This document shows, piece after piece, positions 736 to 14,778 of a DNA stretch of 39,997 nt. Source of the DNA: a virus. Lineage: Duplodnaviria > Caudoviricetes. Position 1 is the stretch's first letter, and each line of letters starts with the position of its first letter. The position numbers and the translations under genes are program-made. Below the pieces are notes generated by a model. The model was not told the DNA's origin, did no database searches, and saw only the letters and a program-made list of their open reading frames with translations. The stretch covers positions 1 to 39,997 of the IMG/VR virus record IMGVR_UViG_3300037515_000242; one strand, written 5' to 3'.

Positions 736-1182
736 ATGGCTGGACGGATGAGTAGGAACAAGGGTGGCAGGGGGGAACGCGAAGCGATTGCGTTACTTCA
801 GCCTGTTATTGATAGGGTTTGCGAAGTGCTTGGGACTGTGCGCTTTGAACTTAGAAGGGATTACAGACAGAGGTTTGAGGCAAAGCGGTATGATATTGTC
901 GGATTGCCTTGGTTTGCGTTCGAGATTAAACGGCATGAAAATCACAGTGGCAGGGAGGGGTGGTGGAGACAAGTCATGGCCAGTGCAAGAGAAGGGCAGG
1001 TCCCGGTGTTGATGTACAGGAAGAATCATGGTCCTTGGATTGTGCGCACTCGTGTGCCTATCCGTGTGGTCAAAGGAGGTGTCGCTGTGCGCTGTACTGT
1101 TGAAATGTGTTTGGAAGACTTCCTGGTCTACCTAGAACAGTTCTTGTTAGATCGGTTGAAAATCACATCTGAAAATCACTAA
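736..1182 (+). CDS. Holliday junction resolvase-like PD-(D/E)xK nuclease (Hjc-like phage family)
   Basis: SRNKGGRGEREAIALL...YDIVGL..FAFEIKR...WWRQ...VPVLMYRKN pattern typical of phage Hjc-type resolvases; GGAGG precedes ATG 736. Confidence 0.75.
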   Translation: MAGRMSRNKGGRGEREAIALLQPVIDRVCEVLGTVRFELRRDYRQRFEAKRYDIVGLPWFAFEIKRHENHSGREGWWRQVMASAREGQVPVLMYRKNHGPWIVRTRVPIRVVKGGVAVRCTVEMCLEDFLVYLEQFLLDRLKITSENH

Positions 1183-1349
1183 GGCAGGAAAAGTTTACGG
1201 AACATTCAGGAGGGACCCCTGCGCAGGGTTTCCTGCGGATCAGGCGCACAAGCACACGTTTTTTCCAGTTTCCCGGCAAGGGATCTGAAGCAGAAATCAG
1301 GCGCAGGAGCACCATGCGGACCTTATGAAGCTTGGTTGGTGCGCACCTC

Positions 1350-1379
1350 TTGACTGATCCCGTGAGCATGTGGTACCTT
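1350..1379 (+). promoter_or_regulatory. sigma70-like promoter
   Basis: TTGACT-N18-TACCTT with TG upstream of the -10; leader and RBS follow before ATG 1412. Confidence 0.6.
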
Positions 1380-1411
1380 TTAGGTATGATCAACACCACC
1401 TGGGAGCAACC

Positions 1412-1597
1412 ATGATCAGGAAAAAAGTCGTCGACCTCCGCACCGGGCTCATGCATCCGACGCGGGATGCAAGCGGCAGGCGTGTGTCCTACAAGCGAGC
1501 CGCAGTCATCATGCGCGTATGGGAAGAGTGGGCGGACACGCGCCCCTGCACATGGGTCGGTTGGGTGCAGAGCCTGTGTCGTATGCGGATATGGTGA
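1412..1597 (+). CDS. small early hypothetical protein
   Basis: GGGAG RBS then ATG 1412, in frame with track ORF 1370..1597. Confidence 0.6.
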   Translation: MIRKKVVDLRTGLMHPTRDASGRRVSYKRAAVIMRVWEEWADTRPCTWVGWVQSLCRMRIW

Positions 1598-1604
1598 AGG
1601 TGGG

Positions 1605-1634
1605 TTGACTGCGCCTGTACCCTCATTTTATACT
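1605..1634 (+). promoter_or_regulatory. sigma70-like promoter
   Basis: TTGACT-N18-TATACT. Confidence 0.7.
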
Positions 1635-1715
1635 ACATCATACCCAAACTGGGAGGGAGCATGTTCACCGTGGAGTGGATGGACGTGAGAGCAGACGCCC
1701 TGCTCAAGTTCGCAA

Positions 1716-1940
1716 ATGGGTGATCTTGCTCTGCGTTTGCTGGCCAAGTGGCGCAGAGAAGGTGGTACGTGGCGGGTTACTGTCAGGATCGAAGGATACG
1801 ACATGTCCTTTACTTACGCACTACCGGGCAAGATCAGCAAGCGTCGAGCGGAGGGCGCCGCGCGCAGACTGTGCGCAAACGAGACAGACGAGAAGATGAA
1901 ACATATCTTCGTAGTGGACACCATTAAAGAAGGGGGTTGA
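1716..1940 (+). CDS. small early hypothetical protein (coupled to, or frameshift-fused with, a 20-codon ORF at 1661-1723)
   Basis: The strong RBS serves ATG 1661, whose frame stops at TGA 1721-1723; ATG 1716 overlaps it in the +1 frame. Confidence 0.55.
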   Translation: MGDLALRLLAKWRREGGTWRVTVRIEGYDMSFTYALPGKISKRRAEGAARRLCANETDEKMKHIFVVDTIKEGG

Positions 1941-1965
1941 CAGATTCAACCAGAGGTGGTACCTT
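1937..1965 (+). promoter_or_regulatory. sigma70-like promoter
   Basis: TTGACA-N17-TACCTT with extended -10 TG; the -35 overlaps the upstream stop codon. Confidence 0.7.
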
Positions 1966-2008
1966 GTATCATAGCAGTTCGACCTACCCAACCCAAGGAG
2001 CATCGAAA

Positions 2009-2449
2009 ATGAGCACCGAGACCATCGACCGCACCACCATCCGCGACCGGCTCAAGAGCACCACGCCGGACGAGTTCCAGCGTGCACACACCAAGGCGGT
2101 CCTGATCGAGATGGCGGTCATCCTGGGGCTCGCGGAGCCTGCCGGCACGAAGCCGGAGCTGTACGACCTGATCGTGGGAGCGGCCAACCTCCCGGATCCG
2201 TCGCTCCGTGGCAAGTCGTCCGTCGAGGATCCCGTCGCCTACGTCTGGTACAAGGCCGACGAGATGACGGCTCGCGAGGGCGCGCGTCGGAAGGACGTCG
2301 TGGAAGCGTGCATCGCACAGGGGGTGGCGTACCACACCGCGCGCACGCAGTACCAGTCCTGGTTCACAGCGACGGATCGCGGCAGCAAGCGTCTGTCGGA
2401 GCTGGACCCGAAGGACATCCCCGCGGCGCTGCGTCCCGCGGCGGAGTAA
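2009..2449 (+). CDS. early protein with conserved phage S.VE.PV..VW...GVAY.TARTQYQ.W domain (putative DNA-binding)
   Basis: AAGGAG RBS, ATG 2009, strong GC3 codon bias; paralogous to 4165..4488. Confidence 0.75.
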   Translation: MSTETIDRTTIRDRLKSTTPDEFQRAHTKAVLIEMAVILGLAEPAGTKPELYDLIVGAANLPDPSLRGKSSVEDPVAYVWYKADEMTAREGARRKDVVEACIAQGVAYHTARTQYQSWFTATDRGSKRLSELDPKDIPAALRPAAE

Positions 2450-2459
2450 GCGTGGGACC

Positions 2460-2494
2460 GGGGGTCCGGGTCCTCTCCCGGGCCCCCTTCTTCT
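2460..2494 (+). terminator. intrinsic terminator-like hairpin
   Basis: GGGGGTCCGGG-TCCTCT-CCCGGGCCCCC then TTCTTCT, just after a stop codon. Confidence 0.65.
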
Positions 2495-2513
2495 GCCTAG
2501 GAGCTTGCCTATC

Positions 2514-2738
2514 ATGACGACGTATTACGACGACAACTTCGGACACTGGGACATCGAAGACGACGAGGATCTGGACTTCTACCGTCGAGTCCAAAACGAG
2601 TCCGTCGACAAGAAGTGCAAAGGCTGCTGCCGGGTAGTGCGGATCCGACCCGACTACGCCTACTGCAACAGATGTGCTGACATGCTCGAGCACGGGATGG
2701 ATGTGTATTGTGACGATGACGACGAAGGTCTTGACTGA
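2514..2738 (+). CDS. acidic small protein with CxxC...CxxC zinc-finger motif
   Basis: TAGGAG RBS, ATG 2514; CKGC and CNRC pairs; D/E-rich termini. Confidence 0.7.
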   Translation: MTTYYDDNFGHWDIEDDEDLDFYRRVQNESVDKKCKGCCRVVRIRPDYAYCNRCADMLEHGMDVYCDDDDEGLD

Positions 2739-2760
2739 GCCTGGGGTGGGGTGGTATACT
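2731..2760 (+). promoter_or_regulatory. sigma70-like promoter
   Basis: TTGACT-N18-TATACT with extended -10 TG; overlaps the upstream stop codon. Confidence 0.75.
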
Positions 2761-2794
2761 ATAGGGTAAGGTCACACCAACCCAAGGAGCATCC

Positions 2795-3031
2795 ATGACC
2801 AACGCAAAAGCAACAAGGCTCTATGCACAATTGGAGCACGACATCGAACACCATGGTCTTGAGGGCGTGCTCAACATGCTCGCCGGTGTGTGCTACGACA
2901 AGGCTGAGCACCTCCGCAGCATGTGGAACGAAGGTGCTGTGGCGGACGCCTGGACCGAAGTGGGGGACGCGCTCACGGTACTTGAGGTCGACTCACCCGT
3001 TCGCTCCATTTCACCGATGCGGAGGATTTGA
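2795..3031 (+). CDS. small early hypothetical protein
   Basis: AAGGAG RBS and ATG after promoter; helical composition. Confidence 0.75.
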   Translation: MTNAKATRLYAQLEHDIEHHGLEGVLNMLAGVCYDKAEHLRSMWNEGAVADAWTEVGDALTVLEVDSPVRSISPMRRI

Positions 3032-3222
3032 TGGACGAACCCATCCTGCGTCTCACCCGTGAGGGTCTAAGGCTCACCCTCAGCCAGTACGTGCGCCACA
3101 GGAATATCTATGTGCAGTCAGGTCGCGCGTTGGACACGCGTGTCAGATCCAGGGAAGCATTTGAAGCACTCGAAGAACTCCTCTGGGACATCATGAACAA
3201 CGGGAACATACCCAATGACTGA
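3031..3222 (+). CDS. small hypothetical protein
   Basis: GGAGG RBS; TGATG stop/start overlap. Confidence 0.65.
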   Translation: MDEPILRLTREGLRLTLSQYVRHRNIYVQSGRALDTRVRSREAFEALEELLWDIMNNGNIPND

Positions 3223-3514
3223 GATCACTGGCGTAGGATACGACGGTCGACCCCGATACTTGGTGGACGCTCATGGAAAGCGTGTCCACATGAACTCGGC
3301 GCACACGACGTTTCGGGGGGAAGCGTGCAAGGTGGTCGGCGGCAGCCCGCCGCACAAGCCAGGGAGCACCGGCCGAGTCTGGCTCGAGTTCAAGCGTCAC
3401 AAGCAGGAAGTGTTCCCCAGTGTGGTCAATCTTCAATGGGAACGCCCGTTGAGGAGCAGCCAACCGGAAGCCGAGCTGCAGCATCGCCAGGCTGAAGCCA
3501 AGAGGCTCAAGTAA
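3215..3514 (+). CDS. small hypothetical protein
   Basis: Overlaps the upstream stop; TTFRGE..KVVGGSPPHKPGSTGRVW looks like a conserved phage beta-rich domain. Confidence 0.65.
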   Translation: MTEITGVGYDGRPRYLVDAHGKRVHMNSAHTTFRGEACKVVGGSPPHKPGSTGRVWLEFKRHKQEVFPSVVNLQWERPLRSSQPEAELQHRQAEAKRLK

Positions 3515-3687
3515 TGGCAAACGCAATGTCACTTTCGCACGCACAGGTTCGGGCGCTGACGAAGTTCCTGGAACACGCTCTGGAGCATGTCAGTCTGGAC
3601 ACACTCACAGAAGCCATCGGGCTTGAGGAAGCCTACCGGGTGGCGCGGCTCTATACTCGTTTGCAAGAGCGGAAAGACAAGGAGTAA
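3514..3687 (+). CDS. 57-aa hypothetical protein (below ORF-track cutoff)
   Basis: TAATG overlap; translates MANAMSLSHAQVRALTKFLEHALEHVSLDTLTEAIGLEEAYRVARLYTRLQERKDKE; followed by a terminator. Confidence 0.7.
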   Translation: MANAMSLSHAQVRALTKFLEHALEHVSLDTLTEAIGLEEAYRVARLYTRLQERKDKE

Positions 3688-3694
3688 GTACATC

Positions 3695-3718
3695 GGCGCC
3701 CAAACGGGCGCCTTTGTT
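3695..3718 (+). terminator. intrinsic terminator
   Basis: GGCGCCC-AAAC-GGGCGCC-TTTGTT. Confidence 0.7.
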
Positions 3719-3741
3719 CCGGCTATGAATTGCTCCTGACG

Positions 3742-3844
3742 AAAATCCCTGAATATGCGGATGCGCCTGCGTTTACGAAAATCGCAAATCCTGCGCCTGC
3801 TCCTGCGGTTGGATAAAAATCGCAAATCCTGATCTTGCGCCTGC
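3742..3844. repeat. three degenerate ~37-bp direct repeats (AAAATC...TGCGCCTGC)
   Basis: AAAATCGCAAATCCTG at 3778-3793 and 3816-3831; TGCGCCTGC at 3762, 3792 and 3836. Confidence 0.8.
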
Positions 3845-4164
3845 GCTTGCGCGGAACATTGCGGTGACGGCAGGTTTGACCGGCCTCAAAAGGCGCCGGA
3901 CTCAAAAGAGGACAGTGGTGTCCTGCGCCAAGGAATGGACCACAGAATATGTCCACTTGAGGTGACGTTGGCGATATACTCCAACAAGTGTGGCGGAGTT
4001 ACTCCAAAGCCAAGAACTGGACCACAACTCGACTAGAGTGGTAGTTCCTTGTAACTCGTTGCGGTATAAGCACTTACGGCGTTGGTCCAATCGGTGGTCT
4101 GGTTCCTGTAGTATAGGTAGGTCCTGGTCCCACCCATGAGGACCACCACCAAAGGAGCCATACC

Positions 4165-4488
4165 ATGGCCAGCAAGAAGACCAAGTCCCAGCCCGCCGCC
4201 ACCCCCGCCGCCACGTTCGTGGCGCCCGTTACGGTAGCCAAGGCGGACCGGAAGGGATCCAGCACCGTGGAGAACCCCGTGGGCGCCACGTGGGTGATCT
4301 GCTGGAACGCCACCGCCAACGCGGGTGGGACGCCCCCGGCCCGCGCCACCCTCCACAAGCTCGTTTGGGACACCGGGGTCGCCTACTACACTGGGCGCAC
4401 CCAGGTGCAGAAGTTCCTCCAGTGGTTCGCGGCCGGCCAGCCCGCCGCCGGGCTCCCGCGTGGGGTCGTGTTCCCCACCATCCTGTAG
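4165..4488 (+). CDS. early protein, paralogue of 2009..2449
   Basis: AAGGAG RBS; STVENPVGATW...GVAYYTGRTQVQ motif. Confidence 0.75.
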   Translation: MASKKTKSQPAATPAATFVAPVTVAKADRKGSSTVENPVGATWVICWNATANAGGTPPARATLHKLVWDTGVAYYTGRTQVQKFLQWFAAGQPAAGLPRGVVFPTIL

Positions 4489-4581
4489 GCTCGGGGAGGG
4501 GGCGGTGCCGCGTAGGCTGCGGTGCCGCCTAACCCGCGGCCTGGTCCCAAGCCCAGGCGCCACCCACCTAGGAGCAACCCC

Positions 4582-4962
4582 ATGTTCACTACTGTCGTCG
4601 CCACCACCAAACTCGGCGCTTACGTCGCCAGCGATCCGGATAACCTGCGTGCGGTCGACCGGCTGCCCACCCATGTGCTCGCCAACATGGCCGGGGCGGC
4701 CAGCGAGGGTTATGGCCGTGAGGGGCGCGACAACGACTATCCTGCGGAGTACTGGGAGCACTACTACCCGCGCAGCATACTCGTCATCGTCGTTGCGGAT
4801 ATGTACCAGAACGTGGAGCCATACGGCGAACGGCGTGCCGACGACACGTTGCGCCAGGCGGTCGACACGGTGCGCGCCGCGGCCACCGATGAAGACCTGT
4901 TCGAAGCGCTGCTGGATAACCTGCGGGCGATGAACCCCAACGGGGTCGGCACAGCGTCGTAA
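4582..4962 (+). CDS. early hypothetical protein
   Basis: TAGGAG RBS then ATG 4582, in frame with track ORF 4522..4962. Confidence 0.7.
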   Translation: MFTTVVATTKLGAYVASDPDNLRAVDRLPTHVLANMAGAASEGYGREGRDNDYPAEYWEHYYPRSILVIVVADMYQNVEPYGERRADDTLRQAVDTVRAAATDEDLFEALLDNLRAMNPNGVGTAS

Positions 4963-4974
4963 GCTGCGCACATC

Positions 4975-5005
4975 GGCGGCACGGCTCGCACAGCGTGCCG
5001 CCTTT
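4975..5005 (+). terminator. intrinsic terminator-like hairpin
   Basis: GGCGGCAC...GTGCCGCC-TTT after a stop; shares ACATCGGCG...CGCCTTTG flanks with the 3695 terminator. Confidence 0.6.
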
Positions 5006-5122
5006 GCTGCGCACTGCGGAGGAGCATGAGGGGGTATCCCGGAAAAAATCGTGCGCCGGCGCCTGCGGCGCGGGAAGGCCCGCACGCTTTTAGATTTTCA
5101 AGTGATTTCACTTCTACTCCCC

Positions 5123-5152
5123 TTGACAGGTCCTTGAACACTCCACTATATT
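5123..5152 (+). promoter_or_regulatory. sigma70-like promoter driving the 5.2-10.3 kb operon
   Basis: TTGACA-N18-TATATT with AT-rich upstream sequence. Confidence 0.7.
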
Positions 5153-5198
5153 ACTCTATACCCCAAGACCGACCACCTTCTACCCCTGTGGGAACCCC

Positions 5199-5480
5199 AT
5201 GAAAGAAATCTATGACACCCGACGCATCAATCGCGAGGAATTCATTCTCGCGGAGCATCTCGCCAACCGGACCGAGGCCGAGTTCGCGGCTTTCGTGTAT
5301 CGCGCCGAAGGCTGGAAGGCTCGTATAGAGCCACGGGACTCTGAGGAGCTCTACTACATTTGGGTCGGCGGCGAGCGCAAGAACAAGGTGCATCTCCTGC
5401 CGAACGAGAAACCGCCCAAGCGCCGTAGCAATCGTAGTCTCAACCACAAGCGCAACCGCCATCTGCAACTGACCGCATGA
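5199..5480 (+). CDS. hypothetical protein with basic C-terminal tail
   Basis: First ORF after the promoter; ATGA-coupled to the next gene. Confidence 0.65.
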   Translation: MKEIYDTRRINREEFILAEHLANRTEAEFAAFVYRAEGWKARIEPRDSEELYYIWVGGERKNKVHLLPNEKPPKRRSNRSLNHKRNRHLQLTA

Positions 5481-5650
5481 CACCTGATCAATGGGCCCTC
5501 GTGTGGACAGTGGCTCTTGTCGCCCCGGTTCTCTTTACTATGGGATACCTATGGGGCCGTTGGCACGAATCGCGTAAGAAACGGTGGAGCATATCATTTG
5601 AGTCAGCACATGATGTGCTCACAATTCGTTCAATTCGGAGGCATCCATGA
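5477..5650 (+). CDS. 57-aa single-pass membrane protein (below ORF-track cutoff)
   Basis: ATGA overlaps at both ends; MTPDQWALVWTVALVAPVLFTMGYLWGRWHESRKKR... Confidence 0.7.
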   Translation: MTPDQWALVWTVALVAPVLFTMGYLWGRWHESRKKRWSISFESAHDVLTIRSIRRHP

Positions 5651-6171
5651 CTAAACTTACCTTGATCGCATTCGCGGTCGTGTTGCTGGGGTGTGCGGTG
5701 ATGCTCGTCGCCAAGAAGATGGAGGGCATTCTCGGAGACGCGTGCGAATTCATTGCTCATCCCGAGAACAGTGTCTTCGTAGTGCGTGATGACGACCACT
5801 CTACGGGCCTCTTCGGCGCGCACGATGACGACGCACTCGCCACCTTGCTACACGAATTCCTTCGCGCCCCCACGGGAGACGATCCAGACAGGGCAGCAGG
5901 GGCGTGGCACGTCATCTACGATCCAGACAGGGCAGCAGGGGCGTGGCACGTCATCTACGATCGCCCTGATCTCCCGCGAGAGGTGACGATAACGCCTGTC
6001 AACGCTGACACGGCAGCGGAGCTCGTAGCCGCCGACGAGATCGAAGCTCTGCACGCTGCCCTGCGGAAGATCGCCAAGGCGGAAGGAGTGTACAATCGTG
6101 ATCCTCTGGAACACGCTGAGAACATAATCAAAAACATGATTGCGATTGCTGAAAAGGAGCTGGACCGATGA
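5647..6171 (+). CDS. hypothetical protein with N-terminal hydrophobic segment and internal 13-aa duplication
   Basis: GGAGG RBS, ATGA coupling; DPDRAAGAWHVIY x2. Confidence 0.7.
   Translation: MTKLTLIAFAVVLLGCAVMLVAKKMEGILGDACEFIAHPENSVFVVRDDDHSTGLFGAHDDDALATLLHEFLRAPTGDDPDRAAGAWHVIYDPDRAAGAWHVIYDRPDLPREVTITPVNADTAAELVAADEIEALHAALRKIAKAEGVYNRDPLEHAENIIKNMIAIAEKELDR
5879..5962. repeat. perfect 39-bp in-frame tandem duplication
   Basis: GATCCAGACAGGGCAGCAGGGGCGTGGCACGTCATCTAC at 5881 and 5920. Confidence 0.95.
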
Positions 6172-6518
6172 GTGACAGTGGATTGCTGATCGGGGCGACT
6201 ACGATCTCTAACCGTTTGAGGGGCTTCGACGGTGATCTTGAGGCACGTACCCGCTACGCCTTTAGGCGAGCGCTCACAGATGATACGTGGTACACCGGCA
6301 ACGAGGAGGAGAAGTTCCGAGCGGCGCTGGGCGCCGTGCTGCTATCGCTTGCACTTGTGGGTAAGCGTGAGGAATACGACCTTGTGGAGCGCTCCATGCG
6401 TGCGCTACATTCGCTAAGCGCGGCCATGTCCGGAATCCCCATTGACTGGTCTTCGGCTTTTTCGGAGGAGGATCTCCTTCCGTTGCTGGGCTGGTGGAGT
6501 GAAGTATGCCATGAGTGA
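6168..6518 (+). CDS. hypothetical protein
   Basis: AAGGAG RBS, ATGA overlap. Confidence 0.7.
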   Translation: MSDSGLLIGATTISNRLRGFDGDLEARTRYAFRRALTDDTWYTGNEEEKFRAALGAVLLSLALVGKREEYDLVERSMRALHSLSAAMSGIPIDWSSAFSEEDLLPLLGWWSEVCHE

Positions 6519-7698
6519 TAACCTACCTCCCGGCGTCACCGAAGGCATGATCCCTGGAAACACACCCGAGGACGCGGAGTGGGACAGCTTGTACGACTGG
6601 ATAGCGGAGCTTGGTATGGAGCCGAGTGAGATTCGCCACGTGCTCACCGCCAGTCAGCCGTTCATGCGCGGGGGCGAGCCCGTGCGTGGTACCCACCTAC
6701 GGCCCGGCGACGGCAAGTGGTGCGAGTATCTCCACAACGGCAAGATCTGCAACAAGTGCGGCTTCTCCGCTCCCGCCCAACGAAGCGTGGAGAACGCTCC
6801 CGCGGAATCTCCTGATCTCGTGACGGCCGTGAATGAGGTGCTGGCGGGCGCGAGACGCTCGGCTCGTGGTTCCCGAGACACGGCGTGTGTCGACCTCACC
6901 GATCGCTGGTTTACTTCCATCGCGAACTGGTGGCGAGTGCCCGCGCCAGTCGCTCCCGAGCCCGCCGAGACGGAGGAGGGGGATAGATGCGTGATGGTAC
7001 CGATTCAACTTCTTCGCACCGAGTGGCCGCCAACACCGCAACTCGCCCCCGGACACAAGCGTTTTGATGCGGTCTACGAGAGCCTGTTGGCGGGTGCCCC
7101 CATCTGTGAGCCGGTGACTGTCCGGTATGACACATGGACCGTCATCGACGGCCATCACCGCATCGCAGCCGCGAGGCTTCTGGGCATTGATGTTGTGCCG
7201 GTTCGGTTCTGGACGGGCGCAGCGTGGGTTCCGTCCGGGGGACCCGCCCCCACGGCAGCGGACCCCGATCACGTCGCCATGGTCAACGACATGGACGTGG
7301 TGCCCGAGGACGTGCGAGGGGCCGACGTGAGTGCTCTGATTAGAGAGGCCAGCGAGTTCGATCATGGCTACCTCAGAGACGGTATTCCGAGCGGTACACT
7401 CAACGATCACATAACCAAGGCCCACCGACTCATCGGTCTGTTGGTCGCCGCGCTCCGCTCCCCCGAGGACGTGCGCCGGGTTGGGGGCGAGAGGCGTAGT
7501 GTCGATTTACCAGACCACCAACGGTTGGCGTGGGAGAGGCTCGTCGGTACAAACCCCCGCGGCACCGACCGTCGCCGCTCCCCCGGGCGCCCCGACCCGA
7601 GCGTCGAGCAGCGCGACCACGAGGAGCAGCAGGTCGTTGCGTTGTGCGGGGGGTCATGCAGATCGCGTCTGAGGCGTGGGCCAAGAAGGACCCCGTAG
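6511..7698 (+). CDS. mosaic multi-domain protein with a Cys-rich (zinc-binding-like) segment and a ParB/Srx-like domain
   Basis: ATG 6511 overlaps the upstream gene end; CEYLHNGKICNKCG; EPVTV...VIDGHHRIAAARLLGIDVVPV is the ParB-N signature; repeat-encoded linkers. Confidence 0.7.
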   Translation: MSDNLPPGVTEGMIPGNTPEDAEWDSLYDWIAELGMEPSEIRHVLTASQPFMRGGEPVRGTHLRPGDGKWCEYLHNGKICNKCGFSAPAQRSVENAPAESPDLVTAVNEVLAGARRSARGSRDTACVDLTDRWFTSIANWWRVPAPVAPEPAETEEGDRCVMVPIQLLRTEWPPTPQLAPGHKRFDAVYESLLAGAPICEPVTVRYDTWTVIDGHHRIAAARLLGIDVVPVRFWTGAAWVPSGGPAPTAADPDHVAMVNDMDVVPEDVRGADVSALIREASEFDHGYLRDGIPSGTLNDHITKAHRLIGLLVAALRSPEDVRRVGGERRSVDLPDHQRLAWERLVGTNPRGTDRRRSPGRPDPSVEQRDHEEQQVVALCGGSCRSRLRRGPRRTP

Positions 7699-8366
7699 GC
7701 GCGCTCATCGTGGGCACGTGTCGCGGCCTTCTGCCGTGTAAGGAATGCGGCCAGTCGCTCTCTGGAGACGCGCCGCGCGAGCGACGGAGGGAGCGTCCCC
7801 GGGGGGAGCGTGACCCGGACGTCCGACACGCGGCCGAGGCTGCTGCAAGCGGACGCGTGTGGAATCGCACCGGCACCGACCGTCGCCGCTCCCCCGAGGA
7901 CGTACGGCCCGAGCCGATGGCCGCGGTCGGTGAGATCGCCGCGCCGACACGTCATGAGCCAGATCCCGAGCCCGCCGACTTCCCCGACTACGACGACGCT
8001 TTCCTAGCGATGGTCAACGACATGGACGTGGTGCCCGAGGACGTCGATTCGGACGAGTCCGTGAAGAAGGATGTACAAACGCGGATCCGAAAGATGGACC
8101 TCTGCGGGGCGTTCTTTACGGACGGTTGGGGCCAAGAAGCGATGTGCATCTTACCAACACCGTGCGAACGACACGCCTCCGAGGACGTGCGAGGGGCCGA
8201 CGTGGGGGATGCGCTTGCCGAAGCCAGGAAGGCACTCCGGTGCCTGTACATAGCGGTCGACGAGTCTGTCGCACGTGATGTCGAAGCGAAGGCCGAGGCC
8301 GCATTCGCCGCGCTCCGCTCCCCCGAGCCCGCAGCCGAGCCCCGCGACATGGGGGACGGACAATGA
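7656..8366 (+). CDS. mosaic hypothetical protein sharing linker peptides with 6511..7698 (possibly its frameshifted continuation)
   Basis: ATG 7656 is in frame with track ORF 7530..8366; repeats AMVNDMDVVPEDV, GTDRRRSP, AALRSPE and EDVRGADV. Confidence 0.65.
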   Translation: MQIASEAWAKKDPVGALIVGTCRGLLPCKECGQSLSGDAPRERRRERPRGERDPDVRHAAEAAASGRVWNRTGTDRRRSPEDVRPEPMAAVGEIAAPTRHEPDPEPADFPDYDDAFLAMVNDMDVVPEDVDSDESVKKDVQTRIRKMDLCGAFFTDGWGQEAMCILPTPCERHASEDVRGADVGDALAEARKALRCLYIAVDESVARDVEAKAEAAFAALRSPEPAAEPRDMGDGQ

Positions 8367-8611
8367 GCGTGGCCGAGAGGTGCCCGTGTTGTGGCCAGAT
8401 AGGGGTTGTGACTCGCCGACCCTCGTGGGCGTTCACGGAGAGATCCTCCGAGCCCCGCTACACGCTCACGGAAGTGATGGACGCGTTCACTGGCGCGTGG
8501 AGTGATTGGTCCCGGCCCTGGCACGCGCGTACGCTAGCAGAACTCTTTTCCTTTCGGCTCCGCTCCGGGGGCGCCACGACAGATACGGGAGAAGCAACCA
8601 GTGACGCCTAG
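8363..8611 (+). CDS. small protein with CPCCG motif
   Basis: ATGA coupling. Confidence 0.6.
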   Translation: MSVAERCPCCGQIGVVTRRPSWAFTERSSEPRYTLTEVMDAFTGAWSDWSRPWHARTLAELFSFRLRSGGATTDTGEATSDA

Positions 8612-8834
8612 TGACCGAGATATGAGCCTCGACGCCATCGAGGCGCGCATCGACCGAGCGTGGGATATGGTGTCCGCGCTGTGCAAGCCGAGAGGCAGGG
8701 AGGGCTCGCGCGAGTGGGTCATGTCGATTCCGGCACGCCCGAACCACGACCCCGACCTCGTGATCGGAGTCGCGCTGCGAGACGCCCGCGACCTACTCAA
8801 ACGTCTCCGCGCCGCACCCGAGGAGAAATCATGA
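8601..8834 (+). CDS. small hypothetical protein
   Basis: GGGAG RBS, overlapping start; ends in the APE junction motif. Confidence 0.6.
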   Translation: MTPSDRDMSLDAIEARIDRAWDMVSALCKPRGREGSREWVMSIPARPNHDPDLVIGVALRDARDLLKRLRAAPEEKS

Positions 8835-9031
8835 CCGAGAAGCATCCGATTGAAAAGCTTTGGGATCTCGTGACGAGAGAAGCCGTAGACGGATCCATGA
8901 CCGGCAAGCACGACGTACCCAAGGACGGAGCGGCCACGGGGCGGATGACGTTCGACCTACCCGATGGCACGAGGTGGTCTGTGTACGTGGATCGAGTCGC
9001 ACCCGAGGGGAGGGGAGGTAATGAGCCATGA
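8831..9031 (+). CDS. small hypothetical protein
   Basis: GAGGAG RBS, ATGA coupling at 8831, in frame with track ORF 8660..9031. Confidence 0.65.
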   Translation: MTEKHPIEKLWDLVTREAVDGSMTGKHDVPKDGAATGRMTFDLPDGTRWSVYVDRVAPEGRGGNEP

Positions 9032-9396
9032 GGGTGATCATCGCCGGTTCCCGCGACCTCAACAGCTACACACTCGTGGTGAAGGCCGTGGAGGAATCGG
9101 GCATCTTGCCCACGGTCGTGCTGTCCGGTGGCGCTCGTGGGATCGACAGGCAGGGCGAGAAGTGGGCGTCACAGCGTGGCATCCCAGTCGAACGGTATCC
9201 GGCCGAGTGGAAGTTGTGGGGGAATTCGGCGGGCGTGCGGCGCAACCAGAAGATGGCTGATAACGCCGACGCTCTGATCGCGGTGTGGGACGGATCGAGC
9301 CGCGGCACCAAGCTCATGATCGAAGCCGCGCTCAGGCGGGGCCTGACAGTTTACGTGCACGACGCGCGTCGCGACGAGCCTAAGGAGGTGGAATGA
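9028..9396 (+). CDS. SLOG-superfamily (YspA/DUF2493-like) nucleotide-binding protein
   Basis: MRVIIAGSR...VLSGGARGID...AGVRRNQKM...ALIAVWDGSSRGT motifs. Confidence 0.85.
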   Translation: MRVIIAGSRDLNSYTLVVKAVEESGILPTVVLSGGARGIDRQGEKWASQRGIPVERYPAEWKLWGNSAGVRRNQKMADNADALIAVWDGSSRGTKLMIEAALRRGLTVYVHDARRDEPKEVE

Positions 9397-9599
9397 CTAA
9401 TCGCAGCGTGACCGCGAGTCTCGTGCATATCAGGGAAGGCGCGCTTCAGGCAGTCGAGCAGGTCGAGGCGCTCATGGACGAGATGGGACTCCTCAAGCGT
9501 CGTACGGTGGCGGGCACACTCAACCCTGACCGAGTACTTCGTTCGATCGAGTTTGATCGAGAAGGCGCACCCGAGGGGACGGGAGGGAACAAGCCGTGA
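9393..9599 (+). CDS. small hypothetical protein
   Basis: AAGGAGG RBS, ATGA coupling. Confidence 0.65.
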   Translation: MTNRSVTASLVHIREGALQAVEQVEALMDEMGLLKRRTVAGTLNPDRVLRSIEFDREGAPEGTGGNKP

Positions 9600-9835
9600 G
9601 GGGGCCTATCTACAAGACGCAGCTCAACCATGGGACTACGTCCATTTCCGGGAAGGTGATCCACGCCGCCGAGCAGCAAGGCGTGATGATGGCCTGGTAC
9701 GAAGAAGACGGCTTCTACCGCGAATACGTCATTGTGGCGACAGGGCAAGCGCCGCCGGACACCGCGGAGCACGTGTGCACACTCCTCTCCGACGAACAGA
9801 CTCTTGTGTGGCACATCTACCGTGTGTACCCGTGA
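9596..9835 (+). CDS. conserved-looking small phage protein (IYK..L...Q....W...TG...HV.T...LVWH pattern)
   Basis: GTGA coupling; the motif pattern resembles a widespread uncharacterised phage family. Confidence 0.7.
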   Translation: MRGPIYKTQLNHGTTSISGKVIHAAEQQGVMMAWYEEDGFYREYVIVATGQAPPDTAEHVCTLLSDEQTLVWHIYRVYP

Positions 9836-10068
9836 GCTGGGCCTCCCGCCGGAACCGCGCTAAATGGTTTGCCAAAAGAGTCGACCCCGAGTACGAGCGC
9901 CTCAACCTGCGCTGCCCGATCTGCGGCGCGGTGATGCCAAGCTCATTGCACCGACCTTATCATTTGGCGCTTGAGCATGGCTGGCGGCTTTCACAAGAGT
10001 TTAGTGAGGTGGCACGGCTTTCGGTGTACAAGGACACCGGGGGTAACCGCGACACACCTTGTGGTTAA
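9832..10068 (+). CDS. small C2H2-type zinc-finger protein
   Basis: GTGA overlap at 9832, in frame with track ORF 9553..10068; CPIC-x12-HLALEH. Confidence 0.55.
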   Translation: MSWASRRNRAKWFAKRVDPEYERLNLRCPICGAVMPSSLHRPYHLALEHGWRLSQEFSEVARLSVYKDTGGNRDTPCG

Positions 10069-10094
10069 GCCATTTCCAAATAAGGGTGGGTACC

Positions 10095-10274
10095 ATGCAA
10101 GGTAACAAAAGAAATATAGCCTGGTGGTTGTTTGTTATTGCTATGCTCGTAGGGGTGTCCGGGATCGCATTGATTATAAACGGTGCTTCATTCAAGGTGG
10201 CATTGGGAGTATTCTTTGTTATTTGGGCTCAGAACATAGCGCATAATGTGCGATTTATCAAGAGTGAAAGATAG
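10095..10274 (+). CDS. small two-TM membrane protein
   Basis: ATG 10095; two hydrophobic stretches; AT-richer than its neighbours. Confidence 0.55.
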   Translation: MQGNKRNIAWWLFVIAMLVGVSGIALIINGASFKVALGVFFVIWAQNIAHNVRFIKSER

Positions 10275-10282
10275 ATGGTACC

Positions 10283-10312
10283 TTGACTTCAAGTAAGACG
10301 GAGTACCATATT
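10283..10312 (+). promoter_or_regulatory. promoter for a probably leaderless terS transcript
   Basis: TTGACT-N18-CATATT, 7 nt upstream of ATG 10320, with no Shine-Dalgarno in the usual position. Confidence 0.55.
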
Positions 10313-10319
10313 TGTACGC

Positions 10320-10970
10320 ATGGCAAACGAAGAGATTACTAGAGCAACGGGAACCGTATTCAACACAATTCATCCAAAGTATAAGGCATTTGCGGATGAA
10401 TGGTTGACTGGTGAGCATACCGGAAAACGGTTCAACGGTAGAGCGGCATATGAACACGCAGGCTATACCGCAGCACCATCCAATCCATCAACTAACGCAT
10501 CGAAGCTTCTTCGGCACCCTGACGTAGCCGCTTACATCAAATCTCGTATGGACGAGATGGCGATGTCTACGGATGAGGTGCTGTTGCGTTTTTCTGACAT
10601 AGCACGGTCCAACGTTGGCAACATCCTCACGAAAAATGAGCTGTTTCAACGTGTTGAGATCGATCACGACGCCCTTCTAGCTAATAAGCATTATGTAAAG
10701 TCCTTTGGTTACGATGCTAACGGTAACATGAAGGTAGAGTTCCACGACCCGCAACGTGCTCTTGAAAATGTTGCTCGTGTTCTTGACATGTTCAAAGGTG
10801 AGTTTGGGTTCAATGGTTCAGCCGGTGCACCTATTACGATGCGTGTGCAGTTTGTTTCACCAGAAGGTGAAATAGAAGAGCACGGTCCGACTAGTGAGCA
10901 CCAAGACGCCATAGAGGATTTCTCTGAACTTGACGAGATGACGTTGGGCTTACCCGGTGATGAAGACTGA
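10320..10970 (+). CDS. terS: terminase small subunit
   Basis: FADEWL...FNGRAAYEHAGY...NASKLLRHPDVAAYI...DEVL HTH pattern (Terminase_2-like); directly upstream of TerL. Confidence 0.9.
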   Translation: MANEEITRATGTVFNTIHPKYKAFADEWLTGEHTGKRFNGRAAYEHAGYTAAPSNPSTNASKLLRHPDVAAYIKSRMDEMAMSTDEVLLRFSDIARSNVGNILTKNELFQRVEIDHDALLANKHYVKSFGYDANGNMKVEFHDPQRALENVARVLDMFKGEFGFNGSAGAPITMRVQFVSPEGEIEEHGPTSEHQDAIEDFSELDEMTLGLPGDED

Positions 10971-10972
10971 TT

Positions 10973-12247
10973 GTGGTACAGTTTTCAGCAAAATTACCAG
11001 AGTATGCGCGTGGACTTTTTGTACCTGCTCGATATAAAGTCTTTTGGGGTGGGCGTGGTGCAGCTCGTTCTTGGAGTTATGCACAGGCGATCCTTATTAT
11101 GGGAAGCCAGCGCAAGCTTCGTGTATTGTGCTGCCGTGAATTCCAGAAGTCCATTGCTGATTCTGTCCACAAGCTATTCGAAGATCAAGTAGTTCGTTTA
11201 AACCTTCCTGGATGGGATGTCGGCCAAAAAGTCATCACCCATAAAGGAACAGGTACAACAATTCTCTTCGAAGGACTGCGTTATAACACTAATCGCATCA
11301 AGTCACTCGAAGGTATTGATATCTGTTGGGTGGAAGAAGCTGAGTCTGTTACGAAAGCTTCATGGGAAATCCTTATTCCAACCATTCGTAAAGATGAATC
11401 AGAAATATGGATTTCTTTCAATCCTGATCTAGAAAGCGATCCGACGTATCAGCGATTCGTAATAGGTCGTCCACCGAACGCCATAGTGCAGAAAGTCGGG
11501 TGGGAAGACAATCCGTGGTTCCCAGAAGTACTCAAAGAAGAGAAAGACTATCTATACCGTGTAGATCCTGAAGCAGCTGAACATGTGTGGGGTGGGGTAC
11601 CCAGGAAGACTTCAGAGGCGCAAGTGCTTCATGGAAAATGGCGTGTAGAATCTTTCAAACCAGCACCCAATCAATTAGATTCATCCGGTCGTAAGATTTG
11701 GGTTGGACCTTACACTGGTGCAGACTTTGGGTTCTCTGTAGATCCAACGGCATGCACTGAGTTGTGGATTAAACGTTCATCTGAGTATCATTTCAGTCAA
11801 GGTGAATTACATGTGTACCAAGAATCTTGGAAGATTAAACTTGATACACACATGATTAAGCGTCAGTGGCTACGTGACATAGGCCGAAGGATTGTAACCC
11901 GCATTATTCGTGCAGATTCTTCACGCCCTGAAACTATTTCTTATCTAAAGCAACATGGTTTGCGTGGGATTCGTCCTGCTTTCAAATGGCCTAACTCAGT
12001 TGAAGACGGTATTGCTTACTTACGACAATTTGAAGGCATTGTGATCCATCCAAATTGTCGGCACTACAAGCAAGAAGCTATGCTGTATGGTTATAAGGTT
12101 GATGACAAGACTGGCGAGATCACCAGAAAGATTGTAGACAAACACAATCATCTAATTGACGCAACTCGTTATGCGTTGGTACCGATGATTCGCATGCGCC
12201 GCTCGGCTTCTAATTACTCTGGTCATACTTATGCCAACTCCAATTAG
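10973..12247 (+). CDS. terL: terminase large subunit, PBSX/Terminase_3 type
   Basis: RYKVFWGGRGAARS (Walker A), ICWVEEAE (Walker B), LIPTIRK, SFNP, GADFGFSVDP, ADSSRPETI, NHLIDATRYAL. Confidence 0.95.
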   Translation: MVQFSAKLPEYARGLFVPARYKVFWGGRGAARSWSYAQAILIMGSQRKLRVLCCREFQKSIADSVHKLFEDQVVRLNLPGWDVGQKVITHKGTGTTILFEGLRYNTNRIKSLEGIDICWVEEAESVTKASWEILIPTIRKDESEIWISFNPDLESDPTYQRFVIGRPPNAIVQKVGWEDNPWFPEVLKEEKDYLYRVDPEAAEHVWGGVPRKTSEAQVLHGKWRVESFKPAPNQLDSSGRKIWVGPYTGADFGFSVDPTACTELWIKRSSEYHFSQGELHVYQESWKIKLDTHMIKRQWLRDIGRRIVTRIIRADSSRPETISYLKQHGLRGIRPAFKWPNSVEDGIAYLRQFEGIVIHPNCRHYKQEAMLYGYKVDDKTGEITRKIVDKHNHLIDATRYALVPMIRMRRSASNYSGHTYANSN

Positions 12248-13973
12248 TTCACACGAGCAAAATCCAGATGAACCTGTTCAACTTGCAATTGCTCCGTTTG
12301 ATGAATGGACATACGAAGACGCCAATAATGCTTTGAAGCACTATTTGCCGGAAAAATATACAGAAGCTGAATTGTTCTCTGTATACAAAGATCACTTCCA
12401 AAAGGGAAGAGGGTGGATAGGTCCTGGTGAAGCGTTAGATAATAGAACTAACAAGATTTATCAACAATTTGCACCTGAAGATGCCATCGGTGAAGTTTTA
12501 CAGAACATTGAGAATGCTTTTTCCGAGCCACAGATTGGTACAGCGTCGAAAAACCAAGATGATTCTTCAACAACTAAGGGTGAGGAACTAGTACGCTTCT
12601 TGTCAGTGTGGTGGGACAAGCGTCGTATGCAAGAATTGGTTCAAGATCGGCAACGCACCGGAGCGTGGGCTGGCTGGGCCAATTTGCGTCTTTGGATCCC
12701 CTGGCGGTTTTTACGTCAAACTGGCGACGGAGTAACCGTTCCAACGGCACCAAGTTTTGAAGACGCTTTGAATATGATTTTTGTGTCTGGACCTTCACCA
12801 GATACTGGCGCAATGGTGATAGACCAAGCTACACAAGATGTCGCTGCTATATATCTTGACAAAGAAGTAGAATATAGTTCTGATGGTTCAACAAAAACTT
12901 TCGAACGTGCAGAACTCCATTACCTTGATCCTAACCGCAGTAGGGATGAAGACGCGTCAATGATTATGCGGTTTGTCTATTCAAATAAAGATAAGCCGGA
13001 TGTTCGTGTTGAGCTGCCTTTGCAGGGGCACTTGCTAACAAGCGAAATGCGCACCCGTGTGGTAATCACAGAACCTGTCATGCGGACACAGCGTCAGCTT
13101 AATTTCGTTGCTACCTTGATAGGCCGTATCGTCGAAACGGCTGGCTTTCGCGAGCGATATATTCACAACGCAAAGCCACAAGGTATTCGTTACTCACACG
13201 ACGAAGGTGATTCTCTACCCGATGGTGCATTTCTAGAAAGAGACGAAGAAGGTAGATTGTGGCGTGTTGTTCCTCAAGTGCGTACACTTGGTGCTGCCAC
13301 TGTTACGGAGCTCATTGGTCTACCGCAGATGGATCAGACCGGAGAGACAAGAGGCAACCAAATGCCACAAGTAACGATTGCTGAACCTGTTGATCCAAAA
13401 CCGTACACGGAAACGCTAGAGTCTATTCGTCGCCGTATTCTCAGGATGTGTCAGCAAGGTCATCTTGGTGGTACATCAAACGCCGAGACTTCTGGTATTG
13501 CATACGAACAAGCTCGTTCAGTTTTTGAGAAAGACCTAGAGAAACGGCGTGTGTCTTCAGAGGGGATGCTACGCGATCTTTTGACCGTGGTGGTATTGCT
13601 TGCTGAGTTGATTTCAAACAAGGTCGGTGAGTACAGCAATACGCTTAGAATCACTGTAGACCAGCACATCAATCCTGGTCCAAGAAGTCCTGACTTGGTA
13701 AGGCTTGATCTCGAAGCTTATGCCGCTGGTGGCATGTCCCAATTGACTCTGATTTCTAAGCTTGGTATCGAAGATACAGACGCAGAAACAAAACGCATAC
13801 GTGAGTCGTCAACATTCATTATGGGATTGATTGAGAAAGTGACAGCTTCTCAAGGATTCACCAAAGAGAGTATGATTAAAGTCATGGCACTGTTGGAAGT
13901 ACCTGCGGCTGTTGTAGCAGCGCTTGAAGTAGAGGACATTCCTGAACCAATAGCACCCCCGGTTGAAGAGTAG
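12231..13973 (+). CDS. portal protein
   Basis: 580 aa directly after TerL; C-terminal SGIA...helical...MSQLTLISKLGIEDTDAETKRI pattern seen in SPP1-like portals. Confidence 0.8.
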   Translation: MPTPISSHEQNPDEPVQLAIAPFDEWTYEDANNALKHYLPEKYTEAELFSVYKDHFQKGRGWIGPGEALDNRTNKIYQQFAPEDAIGEVLQNIENAFSEPQIGTASKNQDDSSTTKGEELVRFLSVWWDKRRMQELVQDRQRTGAWAGWANLRLWIPWRFLRQTGDGVTVPTAPSFEDALNMIFVSGPSPDTGAMVIDQATQDVAAIYLDKEVEYSSDGSTKTFERAELHYLDPNRSRDEDASMIMRFVYSNKDKPDVRVELPLQGHLLTSEMRTRVVITEPVMRTQRQLNFVATLIGRIVETAGFRERYIHNAKPQGIRYSHDEGDSLPDGAFLERDEEGRLWRVVPQVRTLGAATVTELIGLPQMDQTGETRGNQMPQVTIAEPVDPKPYTETLESIRRRILRMCQQGHLGGTSNAETSGIAYEQARSVFEKDLEKRRVSSEGMLRDLLTVVVLLAELISNKVGEYSNTLRITVDQHINPGPRSPDLVRLDLEAYAAGGMSQLTLISKLGIEDTDAETKRIRESSTFIMGLIEKVTASQGFTKESMIKVMALLEVPAAVVAALEVEDIPEPIAPPVEE

Positions 13974-13974
13974 G

Positions 13975-14003
13975 TTGTGATTTTCAGCCTAACCTCTTAT
14001 ACT
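13975..14003 (+). promoter_or_regulatory. promoter for the capsid operon
   Basis: TTGTGA-N17-TATACT in the portal-scaffold gap. Confidence 0.55.
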
Positions 14004-14070
14004 ACCTAGCAGGCAAAATGTTTCATTGAGGGGCGGGAGGCCCGCTTCTAACCTGTCAAGGTGGCAGCTT

Positions 14071-14778
14071 ATGCCAGAAATCAGTGACGCTGAGTACAGA
14101 CAGTATCTTTCCTATCAGCAGCTTGGAACTCCAACTGAGGTTTCGCGAAAAGTGAGCGACCTTGAAACGGACAACAAGAAGCAACGGGACGAAATTCGTG
14201 TTCTCAAGGAGAATGCTCCTGAGGACGGACAGATGCTTGTTTCAAAAGGCGACGTTGAGGAGCTCACCAAGTATCGGGAGCTGGGCAAACTCGATGAACT
14301 GAAGACTGGTATAGAAGTAGGTCAAAAGGCGGCTGTTGAATTGGCTGCCAAGGAAGTCCGTGAAGCTGCGGTACAGTTTGCTGCGACGGCCGGGCTTGCT
14401 CCTGAAGCAGTGGATACACTCACTGCTATCCCCGCACTCAAAGGCGCGAAATTCGAGGTACGGTCTGTGAAGAACGACAAAGGCGATGATGTAAATGTTG
14501 CCTATGTCACTCTTGAAGGTGAGAACCAGAAAGCGATGAAATACGAAGACGCTGTCGAACGTGTTCCGTCACTGAAAGGTCTTCGCACTGCTACAAAGGA
14601 AGACGACAAGAGTGGCACTAAGTTCGGTCCTCAAGGCGGACCTGGCGGTGAAAAAGGTGGACAAGAAAACGTCTACGCAAAGATCCGTAAGGATGCCGAA
14701 GATCGCAAGAAGGCGGGAGAGGGTCACACTGACTCCGCTACACGAGTACGAAAGGCACTCAATGTTGCGGTGTCGTAA
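14071..14778 (+). CDS. capsid scaffolding protein
   Basis: Charged coiled-coil with a G-rich C-terminal linker; sits before the decoration and MCP genes; ATG 14071 in frame with track ORF. Confidence 0.7.
   Translation: MPEISDAEYRQYLSYQQLGTPTEVSRKVSDLETDNKKQRDEIRVLKENAPEDGQMLVSKGDVEELTKYRELGKLDELKTGIEVGQKAAVELAAKEVREAAVQFAATAGLAPEAVDTLTAIPALKGAKFEVRSVKNDKGDDVNVAYVTLEGENQKAMKYEDAVERVPSLKGLRTATKEDDKSGTKFGPQGGPGGEKGGQENVYAKIRKDAEDRKKAGEGHTDSATRVRKALNVAVS

What the first reader, a model, noticed from the sequence alone, without database searches (positions are those of the whole stretch)
6565..8458. Permuted linker-repeat network: candidate in-frame mini-domain shuffling system
Seen: two adjacent ORFs consist of unique 40-100-aa segments (a Cys-rich zinc-finger-like segment, a ParB-like domain, helical stretches) joined by exact short repeats. 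These are 35 bp at 7279/8010, 26 bp at 7304/8179, 23 bp at 7445/8305, 26 bp at 7560/7871, 18 bp at 7455/7886, 15 bp at 6954/7964 and 11 bp at 8335/8448. All converge on one core, CCCGAG or part of it. CCGAGGACG occurs at about 6566, 7304, 7463, 7894, 8035 and 8179, always read as (P/S)ED in the coding frame. Left and right flanks of the core are re-paired between copies: MDVV-PEDVRGADV vs MDVV-PEDVDS vs HA-SEDVRGADV; AALRS-PEDVRR vs AALRS-PEPAA; DRRRS-PGR vs DRRRS-PEDVRP. Their order differs between the two halves, which a simple tandem duplication does not produce. Inference: the core acts as a frame-preserving crossover point at which domain cassettes are swapped, added or dropped, giving combinatorial accessory polyproteins. 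No recombinase is visible in the window, so the mechanism could be phage recombinase microhomology exchange or a site-specific enzyme encoded elsewhere.
Basis: partly seen in the sequence, partly recalled or inferred. Interest (0 to 1): 0.85.

Follow-up and report, generated by a model that had tools for sequence, protein, structure and literature searches.

The report
Phage gene shuffled at in-frame linkers
A sediment phage gene is a string of small unrelated protein pieces joined by about a dozen short, nearly letter-perfect DNA linkers that otherwise unrelated phages share and fill with different pieces, so the linkers are the swap points of a shared parts pool, likely used by the phages' own recombination enzymes; what the proteins do is untested.

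Summary
The repeats are real, at the stated places and far above chance (9 exact repeats of 13 nt or more, against 0.11 in shuffles). Correction: the 'two ORFs' are one 623-aa gene; this contig alone lacks 16 nt at 7650. Eight IMG/VR phage records and about 40 database proteins carry the same ordered 20-50 nt linkers with different in-frame inserts (15 kinds in one slot, 12 in another), including ParB-like, HNH, NUDIX and ClpX-type zinc-finger pieces. A siphovirus and two podoviruses that share almost no other DNA share them. Synonymous divergence is 0.05 in linkers and mostly 0.2-0.9 in shared inserts. All four pairings of two left and two right flanks occur around a 10-nt core, so the core has been a crossover point. 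Breakpoints cluster near it but are spread, linkers form no hairpins, no site-specific recombinase is shared, and the carriers encode ERF, RecT or AAA_24 proteins. Best reading: annealase-driven homologous exchange at conserved coding linkers, with rarer slips at the core. It resembles PeSL/boundary-sequence shuffling and Ea22/DUF551 mosaics but is intragenic and multi-slot. The scan noted this kind before on other DNA.

The parts
6511..8366 (+). Cassette polyprotein gene; 623 aa in the population, split here into 395-aa and 236-aa frames
7650..7651 (+). Place where this contig lacks 16 nt (assembly error or rare mutant); frameshift
6565..6574 (+). Lone 10-nt PED core after the N-terminal piece (piece shared with P0004)
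6951..6981 (+). Linker A (APEPAET)
6994..7242 (+). ParB/Srx-like insert in slot A-B; also in P0003, P0004, and with other flanks in P0005
7243..7268 (+). Linker B (PAPTAA); allele 2 of this phage switches to another insert set here
   Evidence: P0052; X6
7276..7329 (+). Linker M overlapping linker E at the core (empty M|E site)
7330..7444 (+). Insert c1, helical, unique to this phage in the set
7445..7475 (+). Hybrid linker: left half of F joined to a PED core
7476..7559 (+). Insert c2
7560..7585 (+). First copy of linker D2 (26 nt); the stretch from here to the second copy is absent in frame from P0002 (514 aa)
7586..7763 (+). Insert c3 (holds the 16-nt gap; weak phrog_30107 match)
7764..7870 (+). 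Linker D (7764-7789) and an insert shared with G004 at 97%
7871..7903 (+). Linker D2 with PED core; empty in G004 and G003, filled with 1-2 inserts elsewhere
7904..8006 (+). Insert c4 (7 proteins, full or shortened); holds the 15-nt repeat at 7964
8007..8044 (+). Second copy of linker M with core
8045..8177 (+). Insert c5; 78-79% identical in G001 and G002, where D2 rather than M precedes it
8178..8209 (+). Linker E (EDVRGADVG)
8210..8304 (+). Insert c6 in slot E-F; sits before linker A in G005 and without these linkers in P0016
8305..8349 (+). Linker F (AALRSPEPAAEP)
8363..8611 (+). Second array gene (82 aa): linker H 8447-8473, insert, linker I 8555-8594; fused to the upstream gene in most relatives
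8807..9602 (+). Gene-end linkers of type J (8807-8823, 8996-9034, 9563-9602) with G-rich RBS-like tails and stop/start overlap, around small genes including a SLOG/YAcAr gene 9028-9396

Best explanation
This is a non-structural phage gene cluster whose reading frames are chains of small variable inserts (median 43 aa) held between about a dozen ordered, DNA-conserved, in-frame linkers of 20-50 nt that unrelated phages of one sediment community share; inserts are replaced, added, dropped and moved at these linkers, most likely by the phages' own single-strand annealing recombinases during co-infection. Shown: the shared linkers, the insert variety, empty and filled sites, three alleles of the window's own gene, and the low synonymous divergence of linkers. 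Inferred: (1) crossovers inside two linkers swap the insert between them, and each swap also homogenises the linkers, which would keep them nearly identical and compatible with the common pool; (2) because most linkers contain the same Pro-Glu-coding core, an out-of-register pairing over 10-14 nt joins the left half of one linker to the right half of another in frame, giving hybrid linkers, duplications like the window's two half-arrays, and clean deletions; (3) the products likely act as a changeable set of host-directed or counter-defence domains (nucleotide hydrolases, nucleases, zinc fingers, a ClpX-type domain), which is the least tested step.
For: Same linkers, same order, different inserts in 8 IMG/VR records. 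Genome pairs share little else: window/G002 261 of 39,997 nt, G003/G004 174 of 58,942 nt by blastn; window has tail tube and tape measure, G002 a P22-like portal, G004 SU10-type portal and Pol A. 51 proteins give 171 inter-linker segments in 98 clusters, 15 in slot E-F and 12 in H-I. Linker pS 0.050, pN 0.030; 12 of 15 insert or gene comparisons have pS 0.14-0.94. Four-gamete set around one 10-nt core in DNA. Match ends within 6 nt of the core: 39% of 163 left and 52% of 124 right ends against 13% of random positions, but spread over many offsets; 79 of 110 isolated exact matches hold the core against a mean of 21. ERF in complete G002, RecT in G003, AAA_24 plus PD-(D/E)XK in G004 and G005. 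Erf, RecT and Red-beta recombine short or diverged homology, minimal segment 23-27 bp for Red-beta (PMC3945230, passages). Exchange inside the ParB-like insert (P0048). Second linker set without the core.
Against: No annealase was found in the window's contig (53% complete), G001, G006 or G007 in the family searches run on them (not every family was tried on every record). The 10-nt core is below the 23-27 bp minimal segment, and its recurrence in many linker types and strand bias (55 on the coding strand, 2 reverse, 9.8 expected) are not explained by homology alone. AAA_24 as Sak4-like annealase is my recalled reading and G004's hit is under the cut-off. Loci were found by exact linker matches and I trimmed linker edges, which biases pS down (linkers not used as baits: 0-0.06, J 0.26); 3 of the 15 insert comparisons are as low as linkers (0.00-0.06). 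No raw or long reads were available, so no crossover was seen in single molecules, and long-range combinations in short-read assemblies can be chimeric (G004 appears to be). The deletion allele P0002 rests on one contig and was not among the joints listed for 8 runs.
Confidence: 0.7

Rival explanations
1. A dedicated or host enzyme recognises the core or its C-rich left flank (a site-specific recombinase, nickase, restriction cut or Chi-like signal) and directs crossovers there, making this an integron-like in-frame cassette system.
For: Core is the top enriched hexamer and strand-polar; kept in a different reading frame in linker K; Pro-Glu is coded CCC GAG in 47 of 63 cases against 42 of 135 elsewhere; empty and filled sites flanked by direct core copies; four-gamete set at 10 nt; 13 left match ends fall exactly at the core start.
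Against: No tyrosine recombinase in the two records rated complete (G002, G004), present only in G003 and G006; no resolvase or RT in 5 of 5 records searched; the array protein is the only family shared by 7 of 8 records; no hairpin in 11 linker folds, z -1.44 to +1.22; ends are spread; core missing in one E copy and in the second linker set. A host enzyme cannot be excluded: the host is unknown.
Confidence: 0.13
2. Linkers are kept for a protein or RNA role (flexible Pro-Glu hinges, protease cut sites that release the pieces, or binding and translation signals); shuffling at them is a by-product.
For: Always in frame in the main slots; S/T/A-P-E recurs; several linkers end in G-rich RBS-like stretches before a start codon; earlier scan notes describe protease-site linkers in T4-like phages (unchecked).
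Against: pN/pS in linkers is about 0.6 and 15 of 26 distinct changes are non-synonymous, while synonymous sites are far more conserved than in inserts, the reverse of protein-level constraint; carriers have different head types and the array lies outside the structural block; one linker reads the core in another frame.
Confidence: 0.12
3. A recently spread backbone gene took up many insertions by chance illegitimate events; linkers are just the young remnant of that backbone, and part of the variety is assembly noise.
For: All carriers come from sediment or soil samples of few years; none in GTDB or cultured phages; unitigs break at the linkers.
Against: The same inserts recur in different phages, slots and pairings; c5 copies differ at pS 0.6 yet sit in identical cores; flank switches at 10 nt cannot come from assembly words.
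Confidence: 0.05

Closest known systems
PeSL-mediated modular shuffling in T4-type phages RB49/phi1 (PMC2839356; abstract and passages read)
   Same: Short conserved elements act as linkers at which modules are gained, lost and swapped, with no dedicated recombinase found; excision between direct copies.
   Different: PeSLs are intergenic promoter plus stem-loop units moving whole ORFs in close relatives. Here linkers are coding, in frame, without hairpins, of about 12 ordered types, and shared by sipho- and podoviruses.
'Boundary sequence' model of lambdoid mosaicism (as summarised in PMC3029335, passages read; the original papers were not seen)
   Same: Homologous recombination at short conserved sequences makes mosaic joints; linkers C, I, J here lie at gene ends.
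   Different: That paper says such sequences cannot be found at most mosaic boundaries; here they mark nearly every joint and most lie inside genes.
Lambda Ea22 / DUF551 mosaic early proteins (PMC10834534, passages read)
   Same: Non-essential phage proteins built of shared and swapped blocks with portable small domains; a sister ORF in G002 has DUF551 above cut-off fused to a block that also heads an array ORF.
   Different: No Ead_Ea22 or DUF551 hit in the window's gene; the passages read describe protein mosaics, not DNA-conserved linkers or many slots.
Polyvalent proteins (PMC5512222, abstract start and passages read)
   Same: Many small conflict-type domains in one phage polypeptide, ParB/Srx among them; cassette recombination was raised as a possibility.
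   Different: The word 'linker' does not occur in that text; none of its hallmark peptidase, ART or helicase domains was found here; pieces are much smaller.
Integron gene cassettes (recalled)
   Same: Empty and filled sites bounded by a short direct core; combinatorial arrays.
   Different: No IntI, no attC-like hairpin, no single crossover base, and inserts are fused in frame rather than separate genes.

Membership tests
PeSL cassettes | Intergenic position flanking whole ORFs | tested here: not met
   Linkers A, B, D2, M, E, F, G, H are read through in frame
PeSL cassettes | Stem-loop terminator in the element | tested here: not met
   11 folds, z -1.44 to +1.22
PeSL cassettes | Early sigma70-like promoter | not tested
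   No promoter scan was run
PeSL cassettes | Excised mini-circles | not testable with these tools
   Only assembled contigs were available
Integron | Linked IntI tyrosine recombinase | tested here: not met
   PF00589 in 2 of 9 records (G003, G006), absent from G002 and G004 rated complete
Integron | attC bottom-strand hairpin | tested here: not met
   only 2 window linkers were folded on the minus strand
Integron | One fixed crossover base | tested here: inconclusive
   Ends enriched at the core but spread
Shufflon / invertase systems | Inverted sites and a linked recombinase | tested here: not met
   Repeats are direct, 55 against 2 by strand; no resolvase in 5 of 5
Diversity-generating retroelement | Reverse transcriptase and adenine-biased template/variable pair | tested here: not met
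   No RVT_1 in 5 of 5 records; variation is by block
Ea22/Ead/DUF551 mosaic early proteins | Ead_Ea22 or DUF551 domain | tested here: inconclusive
   None in the window's gene or 27 other proteins; DUF551 33.6 bits, cut-off 22, in a G002 sister ORF; Atlas lead 0.75 only
Ea22/Ead/DUF551 mosaic early proteins | Block mosaic of small domains in a non-structural region | tested here: met
Polyvalent proteins | Hallmark domains (MPTase, ART, SWI2/SNF2, DdrB-ParB and the like) | tested here: not met
   Pfam and PHROG scans give NUDIX, HNH_3, HAD_PNKP (below cut-off), zf-C4_ClpX, weak ParB
Head-protease-processed cargo polyproteins (T4 internal protein type) | Shared head protease and cut-site linker | tested here: inconclusive
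   No protease search run; carriers differ in head genes; linker amino acids are not conserved beyond their DNA

The most novel reading that the evidence does not exclude
A community-wide, integron-like domain-shuffling system without an integrase gene: unrelated phages of one host keep a common grammar of coding linkers whose strand-polar core is recognised by a host or phage enzyme that directs in-frame crossovers, so that captured enzyme and host-mimic domains (NUDIX, HNH, HAD phosphatase, ParB, ClpX zinc finger) are tested combinatorially as counter-defence polyproteins; the linkers would be DNA selected for evolvability, and would mark hundreds of candidate effector domains.
Probability: 0.15. 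Interest if true: 0.88.

Novelty: new variant of a known kind. Interest (0 to 1): 0.62.

Why it matters
The old 'linker' model of phage modular evolution lacks clear cases at most mosaic joints (PMC3029335). Here the joints are visible, ordered, inside genes, and shared across phage types, with empty, filled and hybrid sites in hand. That makes two open questions directly testable: whether short sequences are maintained because they allow exchange, and how phages build new multi-domain accessory proteins. The linkers also cut out about 100 small protein pieces that phages evidently trade, a ready list of candidate host-interacting domains.

Tried and rejected
Cultured phages: blastn of the region gave only chance matches (13 records, best E 0.02); tblastn of P0007 and P0043 gave 1 and 2 weak hits. 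GTDB: exact linker E scan 0 hits; peptide-pattern scan 229 candidates, none confirmed, so the host is unknown. A peptide-degenerate scan of IMG/VR confirmed 6 loci from 5 records already found (6 of 43 candidates), so no synonymously recoded carriers turned up, but it also missed G002, G003 and G006. One search used a mistyped pattern and is uninformative. AlphaFold of P0048 without alignment: mean pLDDT 35, uninformative; no fold search was run. Atlas hits were under 0.9, leads only. P0039 is a spurious eukaryotic hit; P0005, P0016, P0043 share an insert or style but not the linkers and were left out of the counts. Low cover of 7350-7550 in X4, X6, X12 was not used as evidence. The automatic flank graph found only 2 independent cycles because diverged c5 copies clustered apart; I rely on the DNA four-gamete set. 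Assembly chimera as the cause of the repeats was rejected; the 35-nt repeat cannot be bridged by Logan unitigs but three other assemblies give the same order. Nine literature searches of the open-licence library found no description of intragenic multi-linker arrays; subscription papers and supplements were not seen, so absence from print is not shown.

Full report
Setting. The window is a whole 39,997-nt virus contig rated 53% complete: small GC-rich genes up to about 10 kb, then terminase, major head, tail tube and tape measure genes. Near-identical DNA lies in sediment and soil metagenomes (24 runs listed, 23 studies). The host is unknown.

Observation. The two ORFs are one gene: L005, L029, the bridging contigs of 4 Logan runs and three 623-aa database proteins have 16 more bases at 7650. 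The window's contig is an error or rare mutant there.

Relatives. Exact scans with five linkers found 8 IMG/VR records and 2 metagenome contigs, one of them the same length as an IMG/VR record and one the window's own phage. Against the window most of them match only in 20-50 nt islands that keep one order: A 6951, B 7243, D 7764, D2 7871, E 8178, F 8305, H 8447, I 8555, J 9563, with further types C, G, K, M seen among them. Between the same two linkers lie different in-frame inserts. Whole-record comparison shows that these are not strains of one phage: window and G002 share 261 nt, G003 and G004 174 nt, window and G005 250 nt, though G001 and G002 share 7,298 nt. The window has a long-tail gene set, G002 (complete, terminal repeats) a P22-like portal, G004 an SU10-type portal and DNA polymerase A. 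G004 looks like two phages joined in a shared SLOG gene, so I used its two ends as separate arrays.

Insert pool. Protein searches added 15 and 34 hits. Parsing 51 proteins (40 database proteins and 11 ORFs from loci, some redundant; four hits without linkers left out) gave 171 segments of 18 aa or more in 98 clusters, 65 of them singletons; slot E-F holds 15 clusters, H-I 12, D-D2 6; median length 43 aa. Named pieces are NUDIX (P0010), HNH_3 (G004), zf-C4_ClpX (P0044), HAD_PNKP below cut-off (P0027) and weak ParB-like matches. Inserts also change slot: c6 is in E-F in the window and before A in G005, whose left half resembles F.

Alleles of the window's own gene. Besides the 623-aa form, P0052 with L002 leaves at B into another insert set and L002 rejoins at D (an X6 contig shows the same B variant). 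P0002 (514 aa, one contig) lacks exactly the 109 codons between the two 26-nt D2 copies. P0048 has the window's frame with another allele inside the ParB-like insert, so ordinary homologous exchange goes on too.

Are linkers kept as DNA? Across 11 linker families pairwise pS is 0.050 and pN 0.030, with 11 synonymous and 15 non-synonymous distinct changes; in 15 comparisons of shared inserts and neighbouring genes pS is 0.14-0.94 in 12 and 0.00-0.06 in 3. Insert c5 differs at pS 0.6 between window and G001/G002 yet follows an identical core. Pro-Glu is coded CCC GAG in 47 of 63 cases in array-class ORFs (three of the 18 were misassigned by my pattern and one repeats the window) against 42 of 135 in other GC-rich ORFs. 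Caveats: baits were linkers, edges were trimmed, copies are not independent.

Role of the core. The core hexamer is the most enriched one in the arrays (55 against 9.8 expected, 2 on the reverse strand). Ends of shared matches fall within 6 nt of it in 39% of 163 left and 52% of 124 right ends against 13% by chance, and 79 of 110 isolated matches contain it against 21; the core was chosen after the fact. In DNA all four pairings of left flanks M and D2 with right flanks E and c5 exist around the same 10 nt, which needs at least one crossover there. Site D2|E is empty in G004 and G003, has one insert in G007 and two in G001 and the window. But ends are spread over offsets -3 to +20 and 0 to +8, G005's E copy lacks the hexamer, none of 11 folds shows a hairpin, and a second linker set in the early region of G001-G004 works without the core.

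Enzymes. PF00589 occurs in 2 of 9 records and in neither record rated complete; resolvase and RT in 0 of 5. The array protein is the only ORF family in 7 of 8 records. Annealase-type genes differ by phage: ERF in G002, RecT in G003, AAA_24 beside a PD-(D/E)XK nuclease in G004 and G005; none was found in the partial G000, G001, G006, G007 in the searches run. De Paepe et al. (PMC3945230, passages) report that Red-beta, RecT and Erf recombine short, diverged homology, with a minimal segment of 23-27 bp for Red-beta, which matches the linker lengths.

Mechanism. Shown: shared ordered linkers, insert turnover, hybrid linkers, DNA-level conservation. Inferred (0.7): annealase-driven crossovers within linkers between co-infecting phages swap inserts and keep linkers uniform; rarer out-of-register pairing at the common core, always in frame because it codes Pro-Glu, creates hybrids, duplications and deletions. 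The window's gene is such a product: a partial array B-M-E-c1-F/core-c2-D2 placed before a full D-D2-c4-M-c5-E-c6-F array. A site-directed enzyme (0.13) or a protein or RNA role of the linkers (0.12) remain open. That the proteins act against host defences is an inference from the domain list only.

Comparison and novelty. It works like PeSL and boundary-sequence shuffling (PMC2839356, PMC3029335) and its products resemble Ea22/DUF551 mosaics (PMC10834534; DUF551 in a G002 sister ORF), but it fails the tested features of PeSL, integrons, shufflons and DGRs. Nine searches of the open library found no account of intragenic multi-linker arrays; that is not proof of absence. Earlier notes of this scan describe the same kind on other DNA (e1-9721602, e1-10020476) and single-linker arrays in T4-like phages; two look-ups by sequence found nothing like this DNA. 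These notes are unchecked and not counted as support.

Verdict. Real, well supported, a new variant of a known kind; interest 0.62.

Noticed in passing
G001 3314-3670; L042:12231-13017 (G002); G003, G004 early region; window 5647-6171: A second set of short conserved in-frame linkers with variable inserts, lacking the core hexamer; one G002 ORF carries DUF551 fused to a block that also heads an array ORF, and window 6058-6153 shares a block with G001 at 77%.
   Followed up: partly
window 5879-5956: Exact 39-nt in-frame tandem duplication; absent from L029 and from contigs of X2, X3, X8, X12, but a 54-nt X6 unitig spans its junction, so it may be a real polymorphism.
   Followed up: partly
window 7650: 16 nt missing against all other assemblies seen, next to a 7-nt direct repeat of period 15; assembly error or rare mutant.
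   Followed up: yes
L004 and L005 (G004 ends): Record appears to join two phages in the shared SLOG/YAcAr gene, holding the window's array at one end and its own at the other.
   Followed up: partly
arrays of 8 records: Reverse complement of the core hexamer is rare on the coding strand (2 against 9.8 expected), as if inverted cores were avoided.
   Followed up: no
P0044: A ClpX-type C4 zinc finger sits as an insert between two core copies, a possible host-protein mimic.
   Followed up: no
L042:18286-19395 (G002): TnpB/IS605 OrfB gene in the complete podovirus record.
   Followed up: no
window 10000-25000 against 1-10000 and 29000-39997: Structural block is 44-52% GC while flanks are 57-70% GC, a sharp module boundary at about 10 kb.
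   Followed up: no
window 38181-38289 and 30963-31090: A 43-nt direct repeat (38181/38247) and a Pro-Glu/Asp low-complexity repeat in late genes.
   Followed up: no
P0005, P0016, P0043: Inserts of this pool (ParB-like, c6) occur in mosaic proteins with other joints, suggesting other linker vocabularies in other phage groups.
   Followed up: no
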